In this document: piece after piece, positions 44,015 through 60,412 of the stretch
Numbering within the stretch: the first letter of the stretch is position 1
Layout of the letters: the number at the start of each line of letters is the position of its first letter
Source: Escherichia coli
GTDB taxonomy: Bacteria > Pseudomonadota > Gammaproteobacteria > Enterobacterales > Enterobacteriaceae
NCBI RefSeq assembly: GCF_016026235.1
Contig: NZ_CP065613.1
DNA length: 64,000 nt
Strand: one strand, 5' to 3'
Made by a program: the position numbers and the translations under genes
Notes under the pieces: generated by a model
What the model was told of the DNA's origin: nothing
The model's database searches: none
What the model saw: only the letters and a program-made list of their open reading frames with translations

Positions 44015-45131
44015 ACCAGCCACGGAGTGTTATATGTCCCGAAAAGACCTTGCCAATGCGATTCGCGCACTCAGTATGGATGCGGTACAAAAAGCCAATT
44101 CTGGTCATCCCGGCGCGCCGATGGGCATGGCTGATATTGCCGAAGTGCTGTGGAACGATTTTCTTAAACATAACCCTACCGACCCAACCTGGTATGATCG
44201 CGACCGCTTTATTCTTTCCAACGGTCACGCGTCGATGCTGCTCTACAGTTTGCTACATCTGACCGGTTACGACCTGCCGCTGGAAGAACTGAAGAACTTC
44301 CGTCAGTTGCATTCGAAAACCCCTGGCCACCCGGAAATCGGCTATACGCCCGGTGTTGAAACCACCACCGGTCCACTTGGACAAGGTTTGGCGAACGCCG
44401 TCGGACTGGCGATAGCAGAGCGTACACTGGCGGCGCAGTTTAACCAGCCGGATCATGAAATTGTCGATCACTTCACCTATGTGTTTATGGGCGACGGCTG
44501 CCTGATGGAAGGTATTTCCCACGAAGTCTGTTCGCTGGCGGGCACGCTGGGACTGGGCAAGCTGATTGGTTTTTACGATCACAACGGTATTTCGATTGAT
44601 GGAGAAACCGAAGGCTGGTTTACCGACGATACGGCAAAACGTTTTGAAGCCTATCACTGGCATGTGATCCATGAAATCGACGGTCACGATCCGCAGGCGG
44701 TGAAGGAAGCGATCCTTGAAGCGCAAAGCGTGAAAGATAAGCCGTCGCTGATTATCTGCCGTACGGTGATTGGCTTTGGTTCGCCGAATAAAGCAGGTAA
44801 GGAAGAGGCGCACGGCGCACCACTGGGGGAAGAAGAAGTGGCGCTGGCACGGCAAAAACTGGGCTGGCACCATCCGCCATTTGAGATCCCTAAAGAGATT
44901 TATCACGCCTGGGATGCCCGCGAAAAAGGCGAAAAAGCGCAGCAGAGCTGGAATGAGAAGTTTGCCGCCTATAAAAAGGCTCATCCGCAACTGGCAGAAG
45001 AGTTTATCCGTCGGATGAGCGGTGGTTTACCGAAGGACTGGGAGAAAACGACTCAGAAATATATCAATGAGTTACAGGCAAATCCGGCGAAAATCGCTAC
45101 CCGTAAGGCTTCGCAAAATACGCTTAACGCT

Positions 45132-46649
45132 GATATGACTTTCCGTGTCAAACCGGAATCTCTAATTTTGACGATTTTCTTTTTAGGTTTAATTCCCTGA
45201 GGGCGACGTAGCAGTAAATCCGACGGTGAATCACGCTGATATTCGCGGGTTGGATACCGCATTACAGAGGTCCGTCATATGAGCCTGCCACTTTCTTACG
45301 TCGCGAATCAGCTTTGTTCCGCCGTCGCCAAGCGCTAACGTGGGTTACTCTTGTACCGGGCTACGTCGCCTTCAGGGAACTGGTTATTCTCATTTTTTAT
45401 TTGTGACATTGTGGTTGTTGTGCGACAGACATTGCTATTCGGCCCATATCCCAGATAAAACCCGCCAGCTCACGTGCAACAGCAACAATTGTAATATTGA
45501 CATTCTTTCCTTTGGCCTGAAGTTTTCGATACCTCTTACAAAGCCTGAGTTGAGCATCCCATGCTCTGTCAATGACGGGGCGGGGTAAATTTTCCTGCCT
45601 TTTTTGTATTGCCGGACTGATGCGTGCCGGATGACGGTAACTCCACGCTGCCTCGACCAATAGCTTTCTGGCATAGCTGTTTCCGGCTTTGGTAATGCTG
45701 CCCTGATGTCTGCTTCCACCCGATGAATATTCTGATGGCGTGATACCAAACCATGACATCAGTTGTCGTGGATGTTCAAAACGGGTCAGATCACCCAGTT
45801 CAGAAATTAATCCAACCGCAGTAATAAACTGAATCCCTCGCATGGCTTGCAGCGCCTCTACTACCGGATACAGCCTCCATTCGGTAACGGCCTCCTTCAG
45901 GGCGGATTCCAGCCGTTCACATTGTGCCTGCCGGTCTTCTATTGTACGACGGTGTTCGTCAAAAGCTAATTGTCGCCAGGGACTTTCGAATGAGTATTTG
46001 CTGAGCCAGCGTCGGTGTGCAGGGCCCCAATCTGCTCGCCCGACATAATGGACCCCATGAACCAGAAGAAACGATTTCAGACGTTGCCTTGCATGCCGTA
46101 AATCATCGCGGGCAGATGCCCATGCCCGGGCCAAATCCCGGAATGCCTCATCTTCAATGCCGGGTACGTAGACAGCAGAAAGATCTCCTGCACGCAGTGA
46201 ACGCACAAGTCTGATGGCATCACGGCGATCGGTTTTAACCCGCTCCCCCGGTTTTTTCGGGATAAGTGAGGGGGCGCAGACCATGCAGTCAAAACCGGAT
46301 TTCACCAGCCGACGATAAAGTCCATAACCACAGGGCCCCGCTTCATAAACGATACTGACCTGCGATGACTTTGACCTGAGACGTTTACAAAGATTCTGAA
46401 TATCAGTAGGTGATGTGCCAATTTTACCCATCAGTTCAACAGGTTCTGAATTGATAGCATAAGCGACAGTAATCGATTCTTTGTGAACATCTAACCCGAC
46501 GTACAATGTGTTATTGTTGTTCATGCTGGCCTCCGTGGTGGAAATACCGGGGTGTAGCAACAGCTCACCCATGCGGCTCTGACAACGATGTTAACCCGCG
46601 TTAAATATCCCACGTTGGCCAGCATCTGTCTCACGGAAAGTCATACTGC
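45132..46649 (-). mobile_element. IS110-family insertion sequence (IS1111-subgroup-like; ~1.52 kb) with 14-bp subterminal inverted repeats
   Basis: Insert between tktB halves; CT dinucleotide at both junctions (45130-45131 and 46650-46651), no longer duplication; perfect subterminal IRs tatgactttccgtg (45134-45147) and cacggaaagtcata (46632-46645); single DEDD-type transposase ORF; 265 bp non-coding 3' of tnp. Confidence 0.8.
45397..46524 (-). CDS. IS110-family (DEDD-type) transposase/recombinase
   Basis: ORF 45397..46572; start taken at MNNNNTLYVGLDVHKESITVAYA... (375 aa) with GGAGG 7 nt upstream; YVGLDVHK N-terminal motif typical of the IS110 family. Confidence 0.85.
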   Translation of the reverse strand: MNNNNTLYVGLDVHKESITVAYAINSEPVELMGKIGTSPTDIQNLCKRLRSKSSQVSIVYEAGPCGYGLYRRLVKSGFDCMVCAPSLIPKKPGERVKTDRRDAIRLVRSLRAGDLSAVYVPGIEDEAFRDLARAWASARDDLRHARQRLKSFLLVHGVHYVGRADWGPAHRRWLSKYSFESPWRQLAFDEHRRTIEDRQAQCERLESALKEAVTEWRLYPVVEALQAMRGIQFITAVGLISELGDLTRFEHPRQLMSWFGITPSEYSSGGSRHQGSITKAGNSYARKLLVEAAWSYRHPARISPAIQKRQENLPRPVIDRAWDAQLRLCKRYRKLQAKGKNVNITIVAVARELAGFIWDMGRIAMSVAQQPQCHK

Positions 46650-47597
46650 CTTACGGGCCGATGCTACCGGAGCTGCTCGGCGGTTCGGCGGATCTGGCTC
46701 CCAGCAACCTGACCATCTGGAAAGGTTCTGTTTCGCTGAAGGAAGATCCGGCGGGCAACTACATTCACTACGGGGTGCGTGAATTTGGCATGACCGCTAT
46801 CGCCAACGGCATTGCGCACCACGGCGGCTTTGTGCCGTATACCGCAACGTTCCTGATGTTTGTTGAATACGCCCGTAACGCCGCGCGGATGGCGGCACTG
46901 ATGAAAGCGCGGCAGATTATGGTTTATACCCACGACTCAATTGGTCTGGGCGAAGATGGTCCGACGCACCAGGCTGTTGAGCAACTGGCCAGCCTGCGCT
47001 TAACGCCAAATTTCAGCACCTGGCGACCGTGCGATCAGGTGGAAGCGGCGGTGGGCTGGAAGCTGGCGGTTGAGCGCCACAACGGACCGACGGCACTGAT
47101 TCTCTCCAGGCAGAATCTGGCCCAGGTGGAACGTACGCCGGATCAGGTTAAAGAGATTGCTCGTGGCGGTTATGTGCTGAAAGACAGCGGCGGTAAGCCA
47201 GATATTATTTTGATTGCCACCGGTTCAGAGATGGAAATCACCCTGCAAGCGGCAGAGAAATTAGCGGGAGAAGGTCGCAATGTTCGCGTAGTTTCCCTGC
47301 CCTCGACCGATATTTTCGACGCCCAGGATGAGGAATATCGGGAGTCGGTGTTGCCTTCTAACGTTGCGGCTCGCGTGGCGGTGGAAGCAGGTATTGCCGA
47401 TTACTGGTACAAGTATGTTGGTCTGAAAGGGGCAATTGTCGGGATGACGGGTTATGGGGAATCTGCTCCGGCGGATAAGCTGTTCCCGTTCTTTGGCTTT
47501 ACCGCCGAGAATATTGTGGCAAAAGCGCATAAGGTGCTGGGAGTGAAAGGTGCCTGATGGTGATCGCCGGATGCTGATTGCCGGATGCGACGCTGAC

Positions 47598-48505
<908 letters not shown>

Positions 48506-49088
48506 TCCAGGAGATGCTCCTGCATGGCTTTCAGATATGCATTTTCTGCGCGAAGATAACGCAGCTCATTCTTCATCTCTTCCGGCGTCATGTTTCCCTC
48601 GTTTTCATGGGTATCATTAGAACGGGTCATGCTTTTCTCCTTCCTGCGCCTGATAAAGGCCTCATTACCAGATTTGCGGTAGCCTTTTATCCAGTTTTTA
48701 ACCATGTTGTGGCTGGGAATGTTAAACCGGGCAGCTACCCGGGGTAGAGACTCAGAATGCCCGAGAGCATAAAGAACCACGCAAAGTTTATCTTCAGGAG
48801 AATAGCTACGCTTGTGTCTGCAATCCAGTGCCTGAGGACCGTGAAGAAGAAAAAGATTAATCCAGTGTGAGAGGCTGGTGTGAGAAAGTTGAAAGAGTTT
48901 TGCCGTAGAAATGATGCCTGCATGACCGGCCAGGTAATGATTTACAGCGGCAAGTTTTACTTCAAATGAATGTTTCATAAACTGCACCTTCAGATGTCAG
49001 ATTATGTCCAACATTTGGGGTGCAGTTCATGACGCGTCTTATCCGGCCTACAGCGTCTTAACCGGTCTACATGTCCCCGCTATTTTGT

Positions 49089-50132
49089 TTAACGGGTGAT
49101 CCACAACGTGGGCCAGGCGTCTGGCCCATGCCAGTTATCGCAGGTGGGTTCTGCGGCGTAACGCACCAGGCGAAAACGCTGACCGTCAAAGCGCCAGCGC
49201 GCCTGAATGCCACAATCGCTTAATCCGCGCCCTTTCGCTAAGGTCACCAGCTCACGCGATTTCTCATCAAATGTTGCGTTCATCAGTTCCAGTTCATTCG
49301 TCTCCTGACCGTTGTTGAACGGCAAACGCAACCGAACCGGGCGCGAGGCCAGCGGCTTTTTACGCGACACAATCCATGCCAAATCAATGGTGTTATAGGC
49401 CCCTGCCTCACAGCTAATCATCATCAGCGCTTTATCATCAGTCAGCGCAGTGACATTCACCTCACGACGCAATGGATCAAGCGAGCAGCGCAGACCATTC
49501 ATCCGCCAGTTTCCATAATCCAGCAAATCGTTGCGTTCTTCGAGTGAGAGTGGCGTCGGCGTTGGGTTAACCACCGCGACCTCTTTCAGCGCAGGCGCGG
49601 GCGGTACGCTGAGCGGCGGTTCGTCCCCTTTCTTTATCCACGCGGTTTCACTGCCAACGCGCTTTTGCTGAGCATCAATAAACAACAACGCCGCTTTTAA
49701 GCCACTCAGAGAAATGGTCTGATTGCCGTCGCGTAAGGTGATCGCCTTCCCTTCCTGAATCATCTGCAAAAACGCGGTGATGGTTGCCGTATCATCGGTT
49801 ACTAATAACCATGGTGAAATCCGCCACTTGTCACCACTTAACGCCAACGGCTCACCATCTAACAGCAGCCGTGGCGCTATCTCCCCTTCAGACGCATCCG
49901 GCGATTTCAACCCGCCGCGCTCAATACGTAAAACGGCATCGGTATGCGCCCCGGCGCTGCGGCTCAGGGTCATCACCAGTCCATTATGATCGCCCGTATT
50001 GCGCGCCACGCAGAAGTTTTGGTTATTACAGGTGACCTGCCAGTCGGAAAACGCCCGTTGCGCTGGTGCCGCCCACACCAAAGACGTCGGCAACAAAGCG
50101 AAAAAAAAGAGAAGGAAAATGCGATAGCGCAT
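49089..50132 (-). CDS. ypfG: DUF1176 periplasmic protein YpfG
   Basis: 347-aa ORF MRYRIFLLFFFALLPTSLVWAAPAQRAFSDWQVTCNNQNFC... with signal peptide. Confidence 0.9.
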   Translation of the reverse strand: MRYRIFLLFFFALLPTSLVWAAPAQRAFSDWQVTCNNQNFCVARNTGDHNGLVMTLSRSAGAHTDAVLRIERGGLKSPDASEGEIAPRLLLDGEPLALSGDKWRISPWLLVTDDTATITAFLQMIQEGKAITLRDGNQTISLSGLKAALLFIDAQQKRVGSETAWIKKGDEPPLSVPPAPALKEVAVVNPTPTPLSLEERNDLLDYGNWRMNGLRCSLDPLRREVNVTALTDDKALMMISCEAGAYNTIDLAWIVSRKKPLASRPVRLRLPFNNGQETNELELMNATFDEKSRELVTLAKGRGLSDCGIQARWRFDGQRFRLVRYAAEPTCDNWHGPDAWPTLWITR

Positions 50133-60332: not shown

Positions 60333-60412
60333 GTAGGCCGGATAAGGCGTTAACGCCGCATCCGGCAATGGTGAACGATGCCTGATGCGACGCTCACGCG
60401 TCTTATCAGGCC
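60333..60412. repeat. BIME: two REP palindromic units between ypfN and ypfH
   Basis: gtaggccggataaggcgttaacgccgcatccggca and gatgcctgatgcgacgctcacgcgtcttatcaggcc. Confidence 0.75.

What the first reader, a model, noticed from the sequence alone, without database searches (positions are those of the whole stretch)
45132..46649. IS110-family element in tktB with CT junctions, 14-bp subterminal IRs and a 265-nt non-coding 3' end (candidate guide-RNA locus)
A ~1.52-kb insert splits tktB exactly between codons Ala and Tyr. The same CT dinucleotide sits at both junctions (aacgCT|gatatg... and ...actgcCT|tacggg) with no longer target duplication. There are perfect 14-bp subterminal inverted repeats (tatgactttccgtg at 45134-45147; cacggaaagtcata at 46632-46645) and one 375-aa ORF with the YVGLDVHK N-terminal signature of DEDD-type IS110 transposases, preceded by a GGAGG ribosome-binding site. 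IS110/IS1111 recombinases are known to use a structured non-coding RNA from one element end to pair with target and donor DNA around a CT core. The 265-nt non-coding stretch 3' of the tnp stop (45132-45396) is where an IS1111-type element would encode it; whether this copy does is inference. The element is most likely a catalogued IS, so the value lies in the RNA and target-site analysis rather than a new family.
Basis: partly seen in the sequence, partly recalled or inferred. Interest (0 to 1): 0.55.

Follow-up and report, generated by a model that had tools for sequence, protein, structure and literature searches.

The report
ISSso6 insertion carrying its bridge RNA
A catalogued insertion sequence (ISSso6, IS110/IS1111 family) has split the transketolase gene tktB, and its 3' non-coding end encodes a folded guide RNA whose loops spell out the insertion site; it is a clear but already catalogued example of RNA-guided transposition.

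Summary
The insert is ISSso6, which is 100% identical to copies in many E. coli genomes. It lies on the minus strand of the window, inside tktB, and a CT is present at both junctions (AG in the element's own orientation). Putting the flanks back together with a single CT gives intact tktB.

The 265-nt stretch after the transposase gene contains a roughly 190-nt conserved block at window 45382..45190, minus strand. Across 45 distinct relatives this block keeps one fold: 97.6% of cells are paired and 11 pairs show compensatory changes.

Two arms of the first internal loop vary between relatives and follow each element's own flanks:
- UUAGCGCUU is complementary to the site A-AG-CGCTAA.
- CGUAAG is identical to the left flank plus core.

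Sixteen distinct ISSso6 insertion sites give the consensus GTA-AG-CGYTAA, which matches these arms. The second loop carries AUAUCAG, which equals the right end of the element plus the core.

None of this is new in kind. Durrant et al. 2024 (Supplementary Table 5) already list ISSso6 as IS1111-group with a bridge RNA detected in the right end. New here are the explicit guide code and target motif, plus some side observations such as self-insertions into guide-coding DNA. Expression of the RNA was not tested, and the guide for the left end was not resolved.

The parts
44034..45131 (+). 5' part of tktB (transketolase 2), ending in the Ala codon GCT whose last two bases are the CT core
   Evidence: ORF and translation. 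The flanks rejoined with one CT give intact tkt genes at 100% identity.
45130..45131 (.). Core dinucleotide CT (AG in element orientation) at the right-end junction of the element
   Evidence: Sequence. The same AG flanks every ISSso6 copy examined.
45132..46649 (-). ISSso6 body, 1,518 bp. The right end (RE) is at 45132 and the left end (LE) at 46649.
   Evidence: 100% identical over its full length to copies annotated as ISSso6 in E. coli.
45134..45147 (.). Subterminal inverted repeat, RE copy (CACGGAAAGTCATA in element orientation), 2 nt from the end
   Evidence: The inner bases change together with the LE copy in relatives.
45146..45151 (-). TTGACA hexamer in RE, a candidate -35 box of a promoter that would form only when RE and LE are joined in a circle
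   Evidence: Present in almost all relatives, always 14 nt from the end. In the joined ends it lies 17 nt from CAGTAT in LE. The promoter role is inferred from ISEc11 (PMC11187229).
45190..45382 (-). Conserved structured RNA gene (bridge RNA / long seekRNA), about 193 nt, running from the 5' strand to the 3' strand of the closing stem P1
   Evidence: Alignment A1 of 45 distinct relatives. Fold counts: 97.6% of cells paired, 11 compensatory pairs, slid controls 35-43%. Single-sequence fold z = -4.85.
45330..45338 (-). Target guide in the 5' arm of loop 1, UUAGCGCUU. It is complementary to the element-orientation top strand A-AG-CGCTAA (last left-flank base, core, right flank +1 to +6).
   Evidence: A1 columns 54-61 are complementary to each element's own right flank in 69-88% of cases. 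The tktB site reads A-AG-CGTTAA, with one G-T wobble.
45295..45300 (-). Target guide in the 3' arm of loop 1, CGUA-AG. It is identical to the left flank -4 to -1 plus the core, so it would pair with the bottom strand.
   Evidence: A1 columns 94-98 are identical to the own left flank in 71-100% of cases. The tktB left flank is cccGTA-AG.
45235..45242 (-). Donor guide in the 3' arm of loop 2, AUAUC-AG-C. It equals the last 5 nt of RE, the core, and the first base of the right flank.
   Evidence: ATATCAG is present in 43 of the 45 relatives, and all relatives with a recovered right end finish in CATATC. The next base (A1 column 158) equals right-flank base +1 in 94%, against 45% for other elements' flanks.
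45211..45217 (-). UUACUGC, the candidate guide for the left end (complementary to LE bases 1-6, GCAGTA); unproven
   Evidence: Conserved in A1. A 6-mer match of this kind is expected about 1.8 times by chance.
45397..46524 (-). Transposase/recombinase gene, 375 aa: DEDD residues D12, E61, D99, D102 and the S268-G269 motif
   Evidence: Pfam PF01548 (6.7e-11) and PF02371 (1.6e-23). NF033542 at 273.9 bits. The C-terminal domain aligns to the IS621 recombinase 8wt6, E = 2e-5, with the SG motif aligned. Residue positions.
46530..46534 (-). GGAGG ribosome-binding site, 5 nt upstream of the ATG
   Evidence: Sequence.
46632..46645 (.). Subterminal inverted repeat, LE copy (TATGACTTTCCGTG in element orientation), 4 nt from the end
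46643..46648 (-). CAGTAT in LE, a candidate -10 box of the circle-junction promoter
   Evidence: Conserved in most relatives. The spacing to TTGACA is 17 nt in the joined ends. Inferred, not tested.
46650..46651 (.). Second copy of the core dinucleotide CT, at the left-end junction of the element
   Evidence: Sequence.
46652..47557 (+). 3' part of tktB, starting at the Tyr codon TAC

Best explanation
This is a copy of ISSso6, an IS1111-group member of the IS110 family, inserted into tktB by RNA-guided recombination.

Proposed mechanism:
- The element encodes a DEDD/serine recombinase. Directly downstream it encodes a roughly 190-nt RNA closed by a long stem and holding two internal loops.
- Loop 1 reads the target. 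Its 5' arm (UUAGCG-CU-U) pairs with one DNA strand across the core and the right flank. Its 3' arm (CGUA-AG) pairs with the other strand across the left flank and the core. Together they specify about 5'-GTA-AG-CGYTAA-3'.
- Loop 2 carries AUAUC-AG, which equals the right end of the element plus the core. It would hold the joined ends of the excised circle.
- Recombination at the AG (CT) core joins circle and target without duplication, leaving one core copy at each junction.

Read on the strand where the core is CT, the layout is the same as in IS621: the left-target guide is in the 5' arm and the right-target guide in the 3' arm. The difference is that the RNA and transposase genes face the opposite way, and the RNA lies at the 3' end of the element.

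Shown here: the identity of the element, the precise junctions, the conserved fold, the covariation of guides with flanks, and the target consensus.

Inferred: that the RNA is made (probably co-transcribed with the transposase from a promoter formed at the circle junction), that it binds the recombinase, and the circle intermediate itself.
For: Identity and junctions:
- Full-length copies at 100% identity are annotated as ISSso6.
- NF033542 scores 273.9 bits. Pfam finds PF01548 and PF02371. The SG motif aligns to the IS621 recombinase in PDB 8wt6.
- The reconstructed empty site equals intact tktB.

Fold:
- 77 relatives at 70-81% amino-acid identity were found, nearly all in Burkholderiaceae. 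Their 3' non-coding regions align only over one block, with two hypervariable segments.
- For the named fold, 97.6% of cells pair and 11 pairs carry compensatory changes, with 0 of 500 shuffles reaching these values. Slid controls pair at 35-43%.

Guides:
- Own right flank (RT, 6 positions scored) matches 4.17 of 6 positions against 1.78 for other elements' flanks. Own left flank (LT, 5 positions scored) matches 3.22 of 5 against 1.67. No permutation out of 10,000 reached either value.
- A scan of all RNA columns against all flank positions, with no prior choice of columns, recovers exactly these columns plus column 158 in loop 2.
- Sixteen distinct ISSso6 sites give GTA (14 of 15 flanks), AG, C (14/14), G (13/14), Y (14/14), T (9/14), A (8/14), A (12/14). 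This equals the guide-specified CGTA-AG-CGCTAA, with a G-T wobble at the Y position.

Literature:
- Durrant 2024 Supplementary Table 5 gives ISSso6 as RE, IS1111.
- Siddiquee 2024 shows experimentally that in IS1111-type elements the downstream non-coding region gives a seekRNA, with the top-strand match 5' of the bottom-strand match. That is the order seen here.
Against: - There is no transcript or binding evidence.
- No Rfam 15 family matches the region, even at E up to 10.
- No promoter-like site above chance lies in the non-coding ends on the element's strand.
- Helices P2, P6 and P7 are nearly invariant, so covariation says nothing about them.
- The guide for the left end is unresolved. 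The 5' arm of loop 2 matches neither end, and the only candidate is a 6-mer at chance level.
- The element ends are almost invariant among relatives, so the donor-loop assignment rests on identity, not covariation.
- A few relatives (L013, L045, and the L022/L034/L041/L063 group) do not fit their flanks in the standard register.
- The transposase is 375 aa. That is longer than the 330-350 aa Siddiquee et al. give for core IS1111 transposases, and it is only about 17-25% identical to the other transposases in the excerpt of their identity table that I read.
Confidence: 0.85

Rival explanations
1. The RNA is only a short seekRNA of about 70-100 nt, consisting of the loop-1 domain, and it selects the target alone. 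The element ends would then be recognised by the protein, by the subterminal inverted repeats and by the target-derived flanks. Under this view loop 2 is not a donor-binding loop.
For: - For ISEc11, ISPa11 and ISKpn4, Siddiquee et al. found a predominant RNA of 82-96 nt carrying both target matches. [quoted passage not shown]
- In this family only one arm of loop 2 matches an element end.
- The inner bases of the 14-bp inverted repeats change together at both ends, which suggests a separate recognition system for the ends.
Against: - The whole 190-nt block, including the closing stem P1 around both loops, is conserved, and P1 has 6 compensatory pairs.
- AUAUCAG in loop 2 is identical to the RE end plus core in 43 of the 45 relatives. 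The next base follows the first base of the right flank of the target in 94%. This links loop 2 to both donor and target.
Confidence: 0.12
2. The conserved 3' block works only as DNA, for example as transposase-binding sites, a promoter or a terminator. In that case the matches to the flanks are by-products.
For: The right end does hold DNA-level signals: the inverted repeat and a conserved TTGACA. No transcript has been shown.
Against: - Compensatory changes keep RNA-type helices, including G-U pairs (for example columns 19-188: GC 21, GU 20, AU 4).
- The two variable arms match opposite strands of a site that lies outside the element, and they change with it. A DNA-binding site has no reason to do that.
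- Direct experimental precedent exists for related elements.
Confidence: 0.02
3. The insertion was not sequence-specific, and the repeated CT is just a 2-bp target duplication.
For: A dinucleotide repeat on its own could be a short duplication.
Against: - All 15 distinct left flanks end in TA-AG. 13 of 14 right flanks start with AG-CG.
- The relatives have different, guide-matched flanks.
Confidence: 0.01

Closest known systems
IS621 and its bridge RNA (IS110 group; Durrant et al. 2024, PMC11208160; Hiraizumi et al. 2024, PMC11208158)
   Same: - DEDD plus serine recombinase. The C-terminal domain aligns to PDB 8wt6 with the SG motif in register.
- A folded RNA with two internal loops.
- One arm is identical to the left target plus core, and the other is complementary to the core plus right target.
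- The core is included in the guides, and it reads CT on the strand where the 5' arm is the left-target guide.
   Different: - The RNA gene lies downstream of the transposase in the right end, not upstream in the left end.
- Relative to the transposase gene, the guide order and the core are inverted (AG).
- The inverted repeats are 14 bp rather than 2-3 bp.
- The transposase is 375 aa against 326 aa.
- The left-target guide is shorter (3-4 nt plus core).
- The second donor guide was not identified.
IS1111-family seekRNA elements ISEc11, ISPa11 and ISKpn4 (Siddiquee et al. 2024, PMC11187229)
   Same: - Subterminal inverted repeats and a long non-coding region after the transposase gene.
- The RNA carries a top-strand match 5' of a bottom-strand match, and the two overlap at the insertion point.
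- No target duplication.
- A -35 box in the right end, suited to a circle-junction promoter.
- Relatives are naturally 'reprogrammed', differing mainly in the guide segments.
   Different: - The ISSso6 transposase is longer (375 against 330-350 aa) and only distantly related to them, at about 17-25% identity to the other transposases in the excerpt of their table that I read.
- The RNA of ISSso6 has not been tested experimentally.
ISCARN28 and other IS1111-group elements with predicted right-end bridge RNAs (Durrant et al. 2024, Fig. 6 and Supplementary Table 5)
   Same: They share the table entry type: group IS1111, bridge RNA detected in RE. The N-terminal motif is similar (VGLDxHK).
   Different: The paper shows a manual guide assignment for six examples only, and ISSso6 is not among them.
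ISPpu9 and its ssr9 module (Pares-Guillen et al. 2025, PMC12288879)
   Same: An IS110-family element whose downstream RNA-gene module is found duplicated or on its own. This resembles the partial right-end copies seen next to ISSso6.
   Different: In ISPpu9 the small RNA was not needed for transposition, and the modules are bounded by defined boxes. The ISSso6 duplicates start at various internal AG sites.

Membership tests
IS110 family (DEDD transposase elements) | Transposase with an N-terminal DEDD (RuvC-like) domain and a C-terminal Transposase_20 domain carrying the G--P----SG motif | tested here: met
   PF01548 at 6.7e-11 and PF02371 at 1.6e-23. NF033542 at 273.9 bits against a cut-off of 140. 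D12, E61, D99, D102 and GITPSEYSSG with S268-G269, aligned to GLTPRRYESG of IS621.
IS110 family (DEDD transposase elements) | Site-specific insertion without a target duplication, apart from a shared core dinucleotide | tested here: met
   The empty site holds one CT. The 16 distinct sites give the consensus GTA-AG-CGYTAA.
IS1111 group | Subterminal inverted repeats of 7-17 bp | tested here: met
   A perfect 14-bp repeat, lying 4 nt (LE) and 2 nt (RE) inside the ends.
IS1111 group | The longer non-coding region lies downstream of the transposase gene (RE longer than LE) | tested here: met
   265 nt downstream against 125 nt upstream.
IS1111 group | Transposase related over its full length to that of IS1111, typically 330-350 aa (Siddiquee et al.) | tested here: inconclusive
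   The protein is 375 aa. In the excerpt of Siddiquee et al.'s identity table that I read, its row shows about 17-25% identity to other transposases. I built no phylogeny. The ISfinder group as quoted by Durrant is IS1111.
IS1111 group | Top-strand target match 5' of the bottom-strand match in the RNA | tested here: met
   The 5' arm is complementary to the top strand and the 3' arm is identical to it, in transposase orientation.
Bridge RNA / seekRNA | A conserved secondary structure in a non-coding end | tested here: met
   A1 fold: 97.6% paired, 11 compensatory pairs, slid controls 35-43%.
Bridge RNA / seekRNA | Loop arms that covary with the target flanks on both strands and include the core | tested here: met
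   No permutation out of 10,000 reached the observed matches.
Bridge RNA / seekRNA | A second loop with two arms matching the two donor ends | tested here: inconclusive
   The right-end arm AUAUC-AG is present in nearly all relatives. The left-end arm was not found: the 5' arm of loop 2 matches nothing, and UUACUGC is at chance level.
Bridge RNA / seekRNA | The RNA is transcribed, binds the recombinase and is required for recombination | not testable with these tools
   No expression data are available. No Rfam family matches.
Bridge RNA / seekRNA | A match to the published covariance models | not tested
   The models are not available here. The published result for ISSso6 is 'RE'.

The most novel reading that the evidence does not exclude
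The DNA that encodes the guides is itself a near-cognate insertion site, so ISSso6 repeatedly recombines into its own RNA gene. That would create tandem right-end modules, some holding a second complete RNA gene. Such modules could then move or be lost on their own, as reported for the ssr9 module of ISPpu9. This would be a built-in route by which bridge-RNA genes duplicate, diverge and become reprogrammed.
Probability: 0.2. Interest if true: 0.45.

Novelty: already known. Interest (0 to 1): 0.25.

Why it matters
It matters little as a discovery. The element is in ISfinder and RefSeq, and its bridge RNA was already placed in the right end by a published survey.

The practical value is in annotation:
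- tktB in this genome is a pseudogene made by a site-specific, RNA-guided insertion.
- The target code, GTA-AG-CGYTAA, predicts where further copies can land in Shigella and E. coli.

The 45 relatives carry at least 20 different guide pairs on an almost unchanged scaffold. They form a ready natural data set on how an IS1111-type RNA is reprogrammed, including a short left guide, tolerance of G-U pairs, and unequal core guides.

Tried and rejected
- Rfam 15 scan of 44500-47300 at E up to 10 gave only a chance snoRNA hit outside the element. The whole window at gathering threshold gave only naRNA4.
- The single-sequence minimum-energy fold found the closing stem but a different interior. I replaced it with the comparative fold. 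RNAalifold's alternative for the junction (columns 26-29 with 119-121) cannot be separated from my P6, because all those columns are invariant. Only the A/G change at column 118 opposite U170 mildly favours P6.
- Search for a left-end donor guide. The 5' arm of loop 2 was compared with both ends in all registers, with and without wobble, and nothing fitted. A mutual-information scan of RNA columns against the first and last 40 nt of the elements gave no identity or complement signal. The k-mer matches are at chance level.
- Promoter scan of the element found nothing in the non-coding ends above the shuffled expectation.
- I considered that TCATATGAC in ISSso6 (window 45282..45274) is an end guide. 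I rejected this because the segment is variable in relatives while their ends are not.
- I did not build a covariance model of my own. The window sequence is about 80% identical to the relatives, so a hit would add nothing.
Full report
WHAT IS THERE. The window holds a 1,518-bp insert at 45132-46649, bounded on each side by CT (45130-45131 and 46650-46651). I joined 100 nt of left flank, ending in that CT, directly to the 100 nt that follow the second CT. The resulting 200-nt sequence matches annotated transketolase genes at 100% identity, and 5,425 of 5,426 complete E. coli genomes hold a match covering at least 80% of it. The insertion is therefore exact. The empty site has one CT, the occupied site has two, and no other base was gained or lost. 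No complete RefSeq E. coli genome carries this tktB junction. Two other assemblies do (L005 and L092).

The perfect 14-bp inverted repeats sit 2 and 4 nt inside the ends. They are the only such matches in the window. One ORF of 375 aa runs on the minus strand from 46524 to 45397, preceded by GGAGG. It is followed by 265 non-coding nt and preceded by 125. Every statement of the finding is confirmed. The one caveat is that the dinucleotide reads AG in the element's own orientation.

IDENTITY. The insert is 100% identical over its full length to copies that RefSeq annotates as 'IS110-like element ISSso6 family transposase'. Of 5,426 genomes, 125 have a match and 40 hold a near-complete copy, on chromosomes and on invasion plasmids. 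The protein reaches NCBIfam NF033542, 'IS110 family RNA-guided transposase', at 273.9 bits against a cut-off of 140. It also matches Pfam PF01548 and PF02371. Its C-terminal domain aligns with the IS621 and ISCro4 recombinases of the PDB, with GITPSEYSSG opposite GLTPRRYESG. The DEDD candidates are D12, E61, D99 and D102, and the serine motif is S268-G269.

THE RNA. A search of one genome per species found 77 relatives of the transposase at 70-81% identity, almost all in Paraburkholderia, Caballeronia, Cupriavidus and their kin. Downstream of their stop codons the sequences are unalignable except for two blocks. One is about 190 nt long, and the other is the last 35 nt or so of the element. 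I aligned the 45 distinct versions of the 190-nt block (A1; in the window 45382..45190, minus strand).

The comparative fold has these parts:
- a long closing stem, P1;
- a first domain (P2, P3) that opens into an internal loop closed by a hairpin (P4, P5);
- a second domain (P6) with another internal loop closed by a hairpin (P7).

Counted on the alignment, 97.6% of cells form pairs and 11 pairs show changes on both sides. No shuffle out of 500 reaches these values, and sliding the partners by 1-3 columns drops pairing to 35-43%. P1, P3, P4 and P5 carry the compensatory changes. P2, P6 and P7 never vary, so they are supported only by being pairable.

THE GUIDES. Within this otherwise 82%-identical alignment, the two arms of loop 1 are hypervariable. 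I extracted each element's ends and flanks and compared them with its own arms.

The 5' arm is the reverse complement of the last left-flank base, the two core bases and right-flank bases +1 to +5. Per-position agreement runs from 67% to 90%. The 3' arm is identical to left-flank bases -3 to -1 plus the core, with 74-100% agreement.

Against their own flanks the guides match 4.17 of 6 right-flank positions and 3.22 of 5 left-flank positions. Against the flanks of other elements they match 1.78 and 1.67. None of 10,000 permutations reached the observed values. I also scanned every variable RNA column against every flank position, without choosing columns in advance. That scan returns exactly these columns, plus one more: the base after AUAUCAG in loop 2 equals the first right-flank base in 94% of cases, against 45% for other elements' flanks.

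For ISSso6 the arms are UUAGCGCUU (window 45338..45330) and CGUAAG (45300..45295). They specify CGTA-AG-CGCTAA. The tktB site is CGTA-AG-CGTTAA, so every position pairs if one G-T wobble is allowed. Sixteen distinct ISSso6 insertion sites from Shigella, E. coli and Salmonella assemblies give this profile: G (14/15), T, A, then AG, then C (14/14), G (13/14), T or C (8 and 6), T (9/14), A (8/14), A (12/14). The mixed T/C position lies opposite a guide G, which can pair with either base.

The top-strand match lies 5' of the bottom-strand match. This is the order Siddiquee et al. report for IS1111-type seekRNAs, and the reverse of the IS110 type. Read on the window's plus strand, the core is CT, the 5' arm is identical to the left target plus core, and the 3' arm is complementary to the core plus right target. 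This is the IS621 layout, with the RNA and transposase genes pointing the other way.

THE DONOR SIDE. The 3' arm of loop 2 contains AUAUC-AG in 43 of the 45 versions, and all relatives with a recovered right end finish in CATATC. This is the analogue of a donor guide. Its one-base extension follows the target, which ties the loop to both partners.

The guide for the left end is not resolved. The 5' arm of loop 2 (ACCUCUGUAAU) fits neither end. UUACUGC, next to P1, is complementary to the first six bases of the left end, but 6-mer matches of this kind are expected about 1.8 times by chance.

The inner bases of the two inverted repeats change together in relatives (for example TATGACTCCCCGTG with CACGGGGAGTCATA). 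The ends may therefore be recognised partly in another way.

EXPRESSION (INFERRED). The RNA block starts 14 nt after the stop codon, and no promoter-like site above chance lies in either non-coding end. The right end holds a TTGACA at a fixed 14 nt from the tip in almost all relatives. In joined ends it would lie 17 nt from CAGTAT in the left end. This resembles the circle-junction promoter shown for ISEc11. In that case the RNA would be made with the transposase from the excised circle. This step has not been tested.

WHAT IS KNOWN. The IS110/IS1111 bridge RNA (Durrant 2024; Hiraizumi 2024) and the seekRNA (Siddiquee 2024) are established. ISSso6 itself appears in Durrant's Supplementary Table 5 as 'Detected Bridge RNA End: RE; IS110 Group: IS1111', and its transposase is in Siddiquee's data set. 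The five papers listed that mention ISSso6 by name are genomic surveys or mapping tools by title and abstract, so none appears to describe its RNA.

The finding is therefore correct but already known in kind, and in outline for this very element. What is added here is the explicit guide code and the target motif. Membership in the IS1111 group is met on inverted repeats, position of the non-coding region and guide order. It is inconclusive on transposase length and relatedness: 375 aa, and about 17-25% identity to other transposases in the excerpt of Siddiquee's table that I read.

SIDE OBSERVATIONS. Five complete ISSso6 copies are followed directly by AG and a partial copy of the element's own 3' part. 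All five internal breakpoints are at an AG. Three lie in or next to guide-coding DNA: GTT-AG-CGCTT, ATC-AG-CGTGA and GAA-AG-TGGCA. I read these as insertions into near-cognate sites of a resident copy, followed by homologous deletion. The modular circles of ISPpu9 are a possible alternative.

In about a dozen relatives the 5'-arm guide specifies AA for the core and the right junction reads AA, while the left junction reads AG.

VERDICT. This is a real feature, correctly interpreted, and ordinary for its family. Interest is low to moderate.

Noticed in passing
L006 2894-3098; L007 2894-3054; L105 1814-1924; L104 1819-2157; L094 1941-2176: Complete ISSso6 copies are followed directly by AG and a partial repeat of the element's own 3' part up to the right end. 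The repeats start at element positions 1314, 1358, 1413, 1180 and 1001, and every breakpoint is at an internal AG. Three breakpoints lie in or beside guide-coding DNA. The repeat in L104 contains a second complete RNA gene. This looks like self-insertion followed by deletion, or like module circles as in ISPpu9.
   Followed up: partly
L016, L017, L019, L027, L031, L032, L038, L042, L054, L058 (junctions); L093 1942-1943: In these relatives the 5'-arm guide carries UU opposite the core and the right junction reads AA. The left junction and the other core guides read AG. The two 'core' copies of one element therefore differ. One ISSso6 copy (L093) also has AA at its right junction, next to a perfect CGCTAAC right flank.
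   Followed up: partly
window 47560-49100: An IS1397 copy (IS3 family; two overlapping minus-strand ORFs at 47630-48352 and 48457-48987) lies directly after the 3' end of tktB, before ypfG. tktB is thus flanked by a second insertion sequence.
   Followed up: partly
window 32588-32669 (-) and 60336-60412 (both strands): Rfam naRNA4 / CssrE hits (REP-derived nucleoid-associated RNA) at 77.5 and 92.7 bits. They are unrelated to the finding.
   Followed up: no
L003, L004, L088 right flanks; L009 right flank: Three ISSso6 copies with different left flanks share the same right flank, AGCGTACAGCCTGAACC, which is the end of an IS66-family element. A fourth copy sits 7 nt further into the same sequence. 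This suggests either a hotspot at IS66 ends or rearrangements between ISSso6 copies.
   Followed up: no
A1 columns 113-118 and 124-127 (window 45280..45275 and about 45269..45266): Two further variable segments of the RNA covary with nothing I tested. One lies between the two domains and the other in the 5' arm of loop 2. The first roughly tracks whether the target is A-AG or T-AG.
   Followed up: partly
L011-L087: The closest relatives of this enterobacterial element (70-81% amino-acid identity) are nearly all in Burkholderiaceae, often as contigs of about 1.54 kb that are collapsed repeats. In the one-genome-per-species collection the only enterobacterial relative was a partial match at 88% identity in Acerihabitans (L084). 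This points to transfer of ISSso6 into the Escherichia/Shigella lineage from a betaproteobacterial pool.
   Followed up: no
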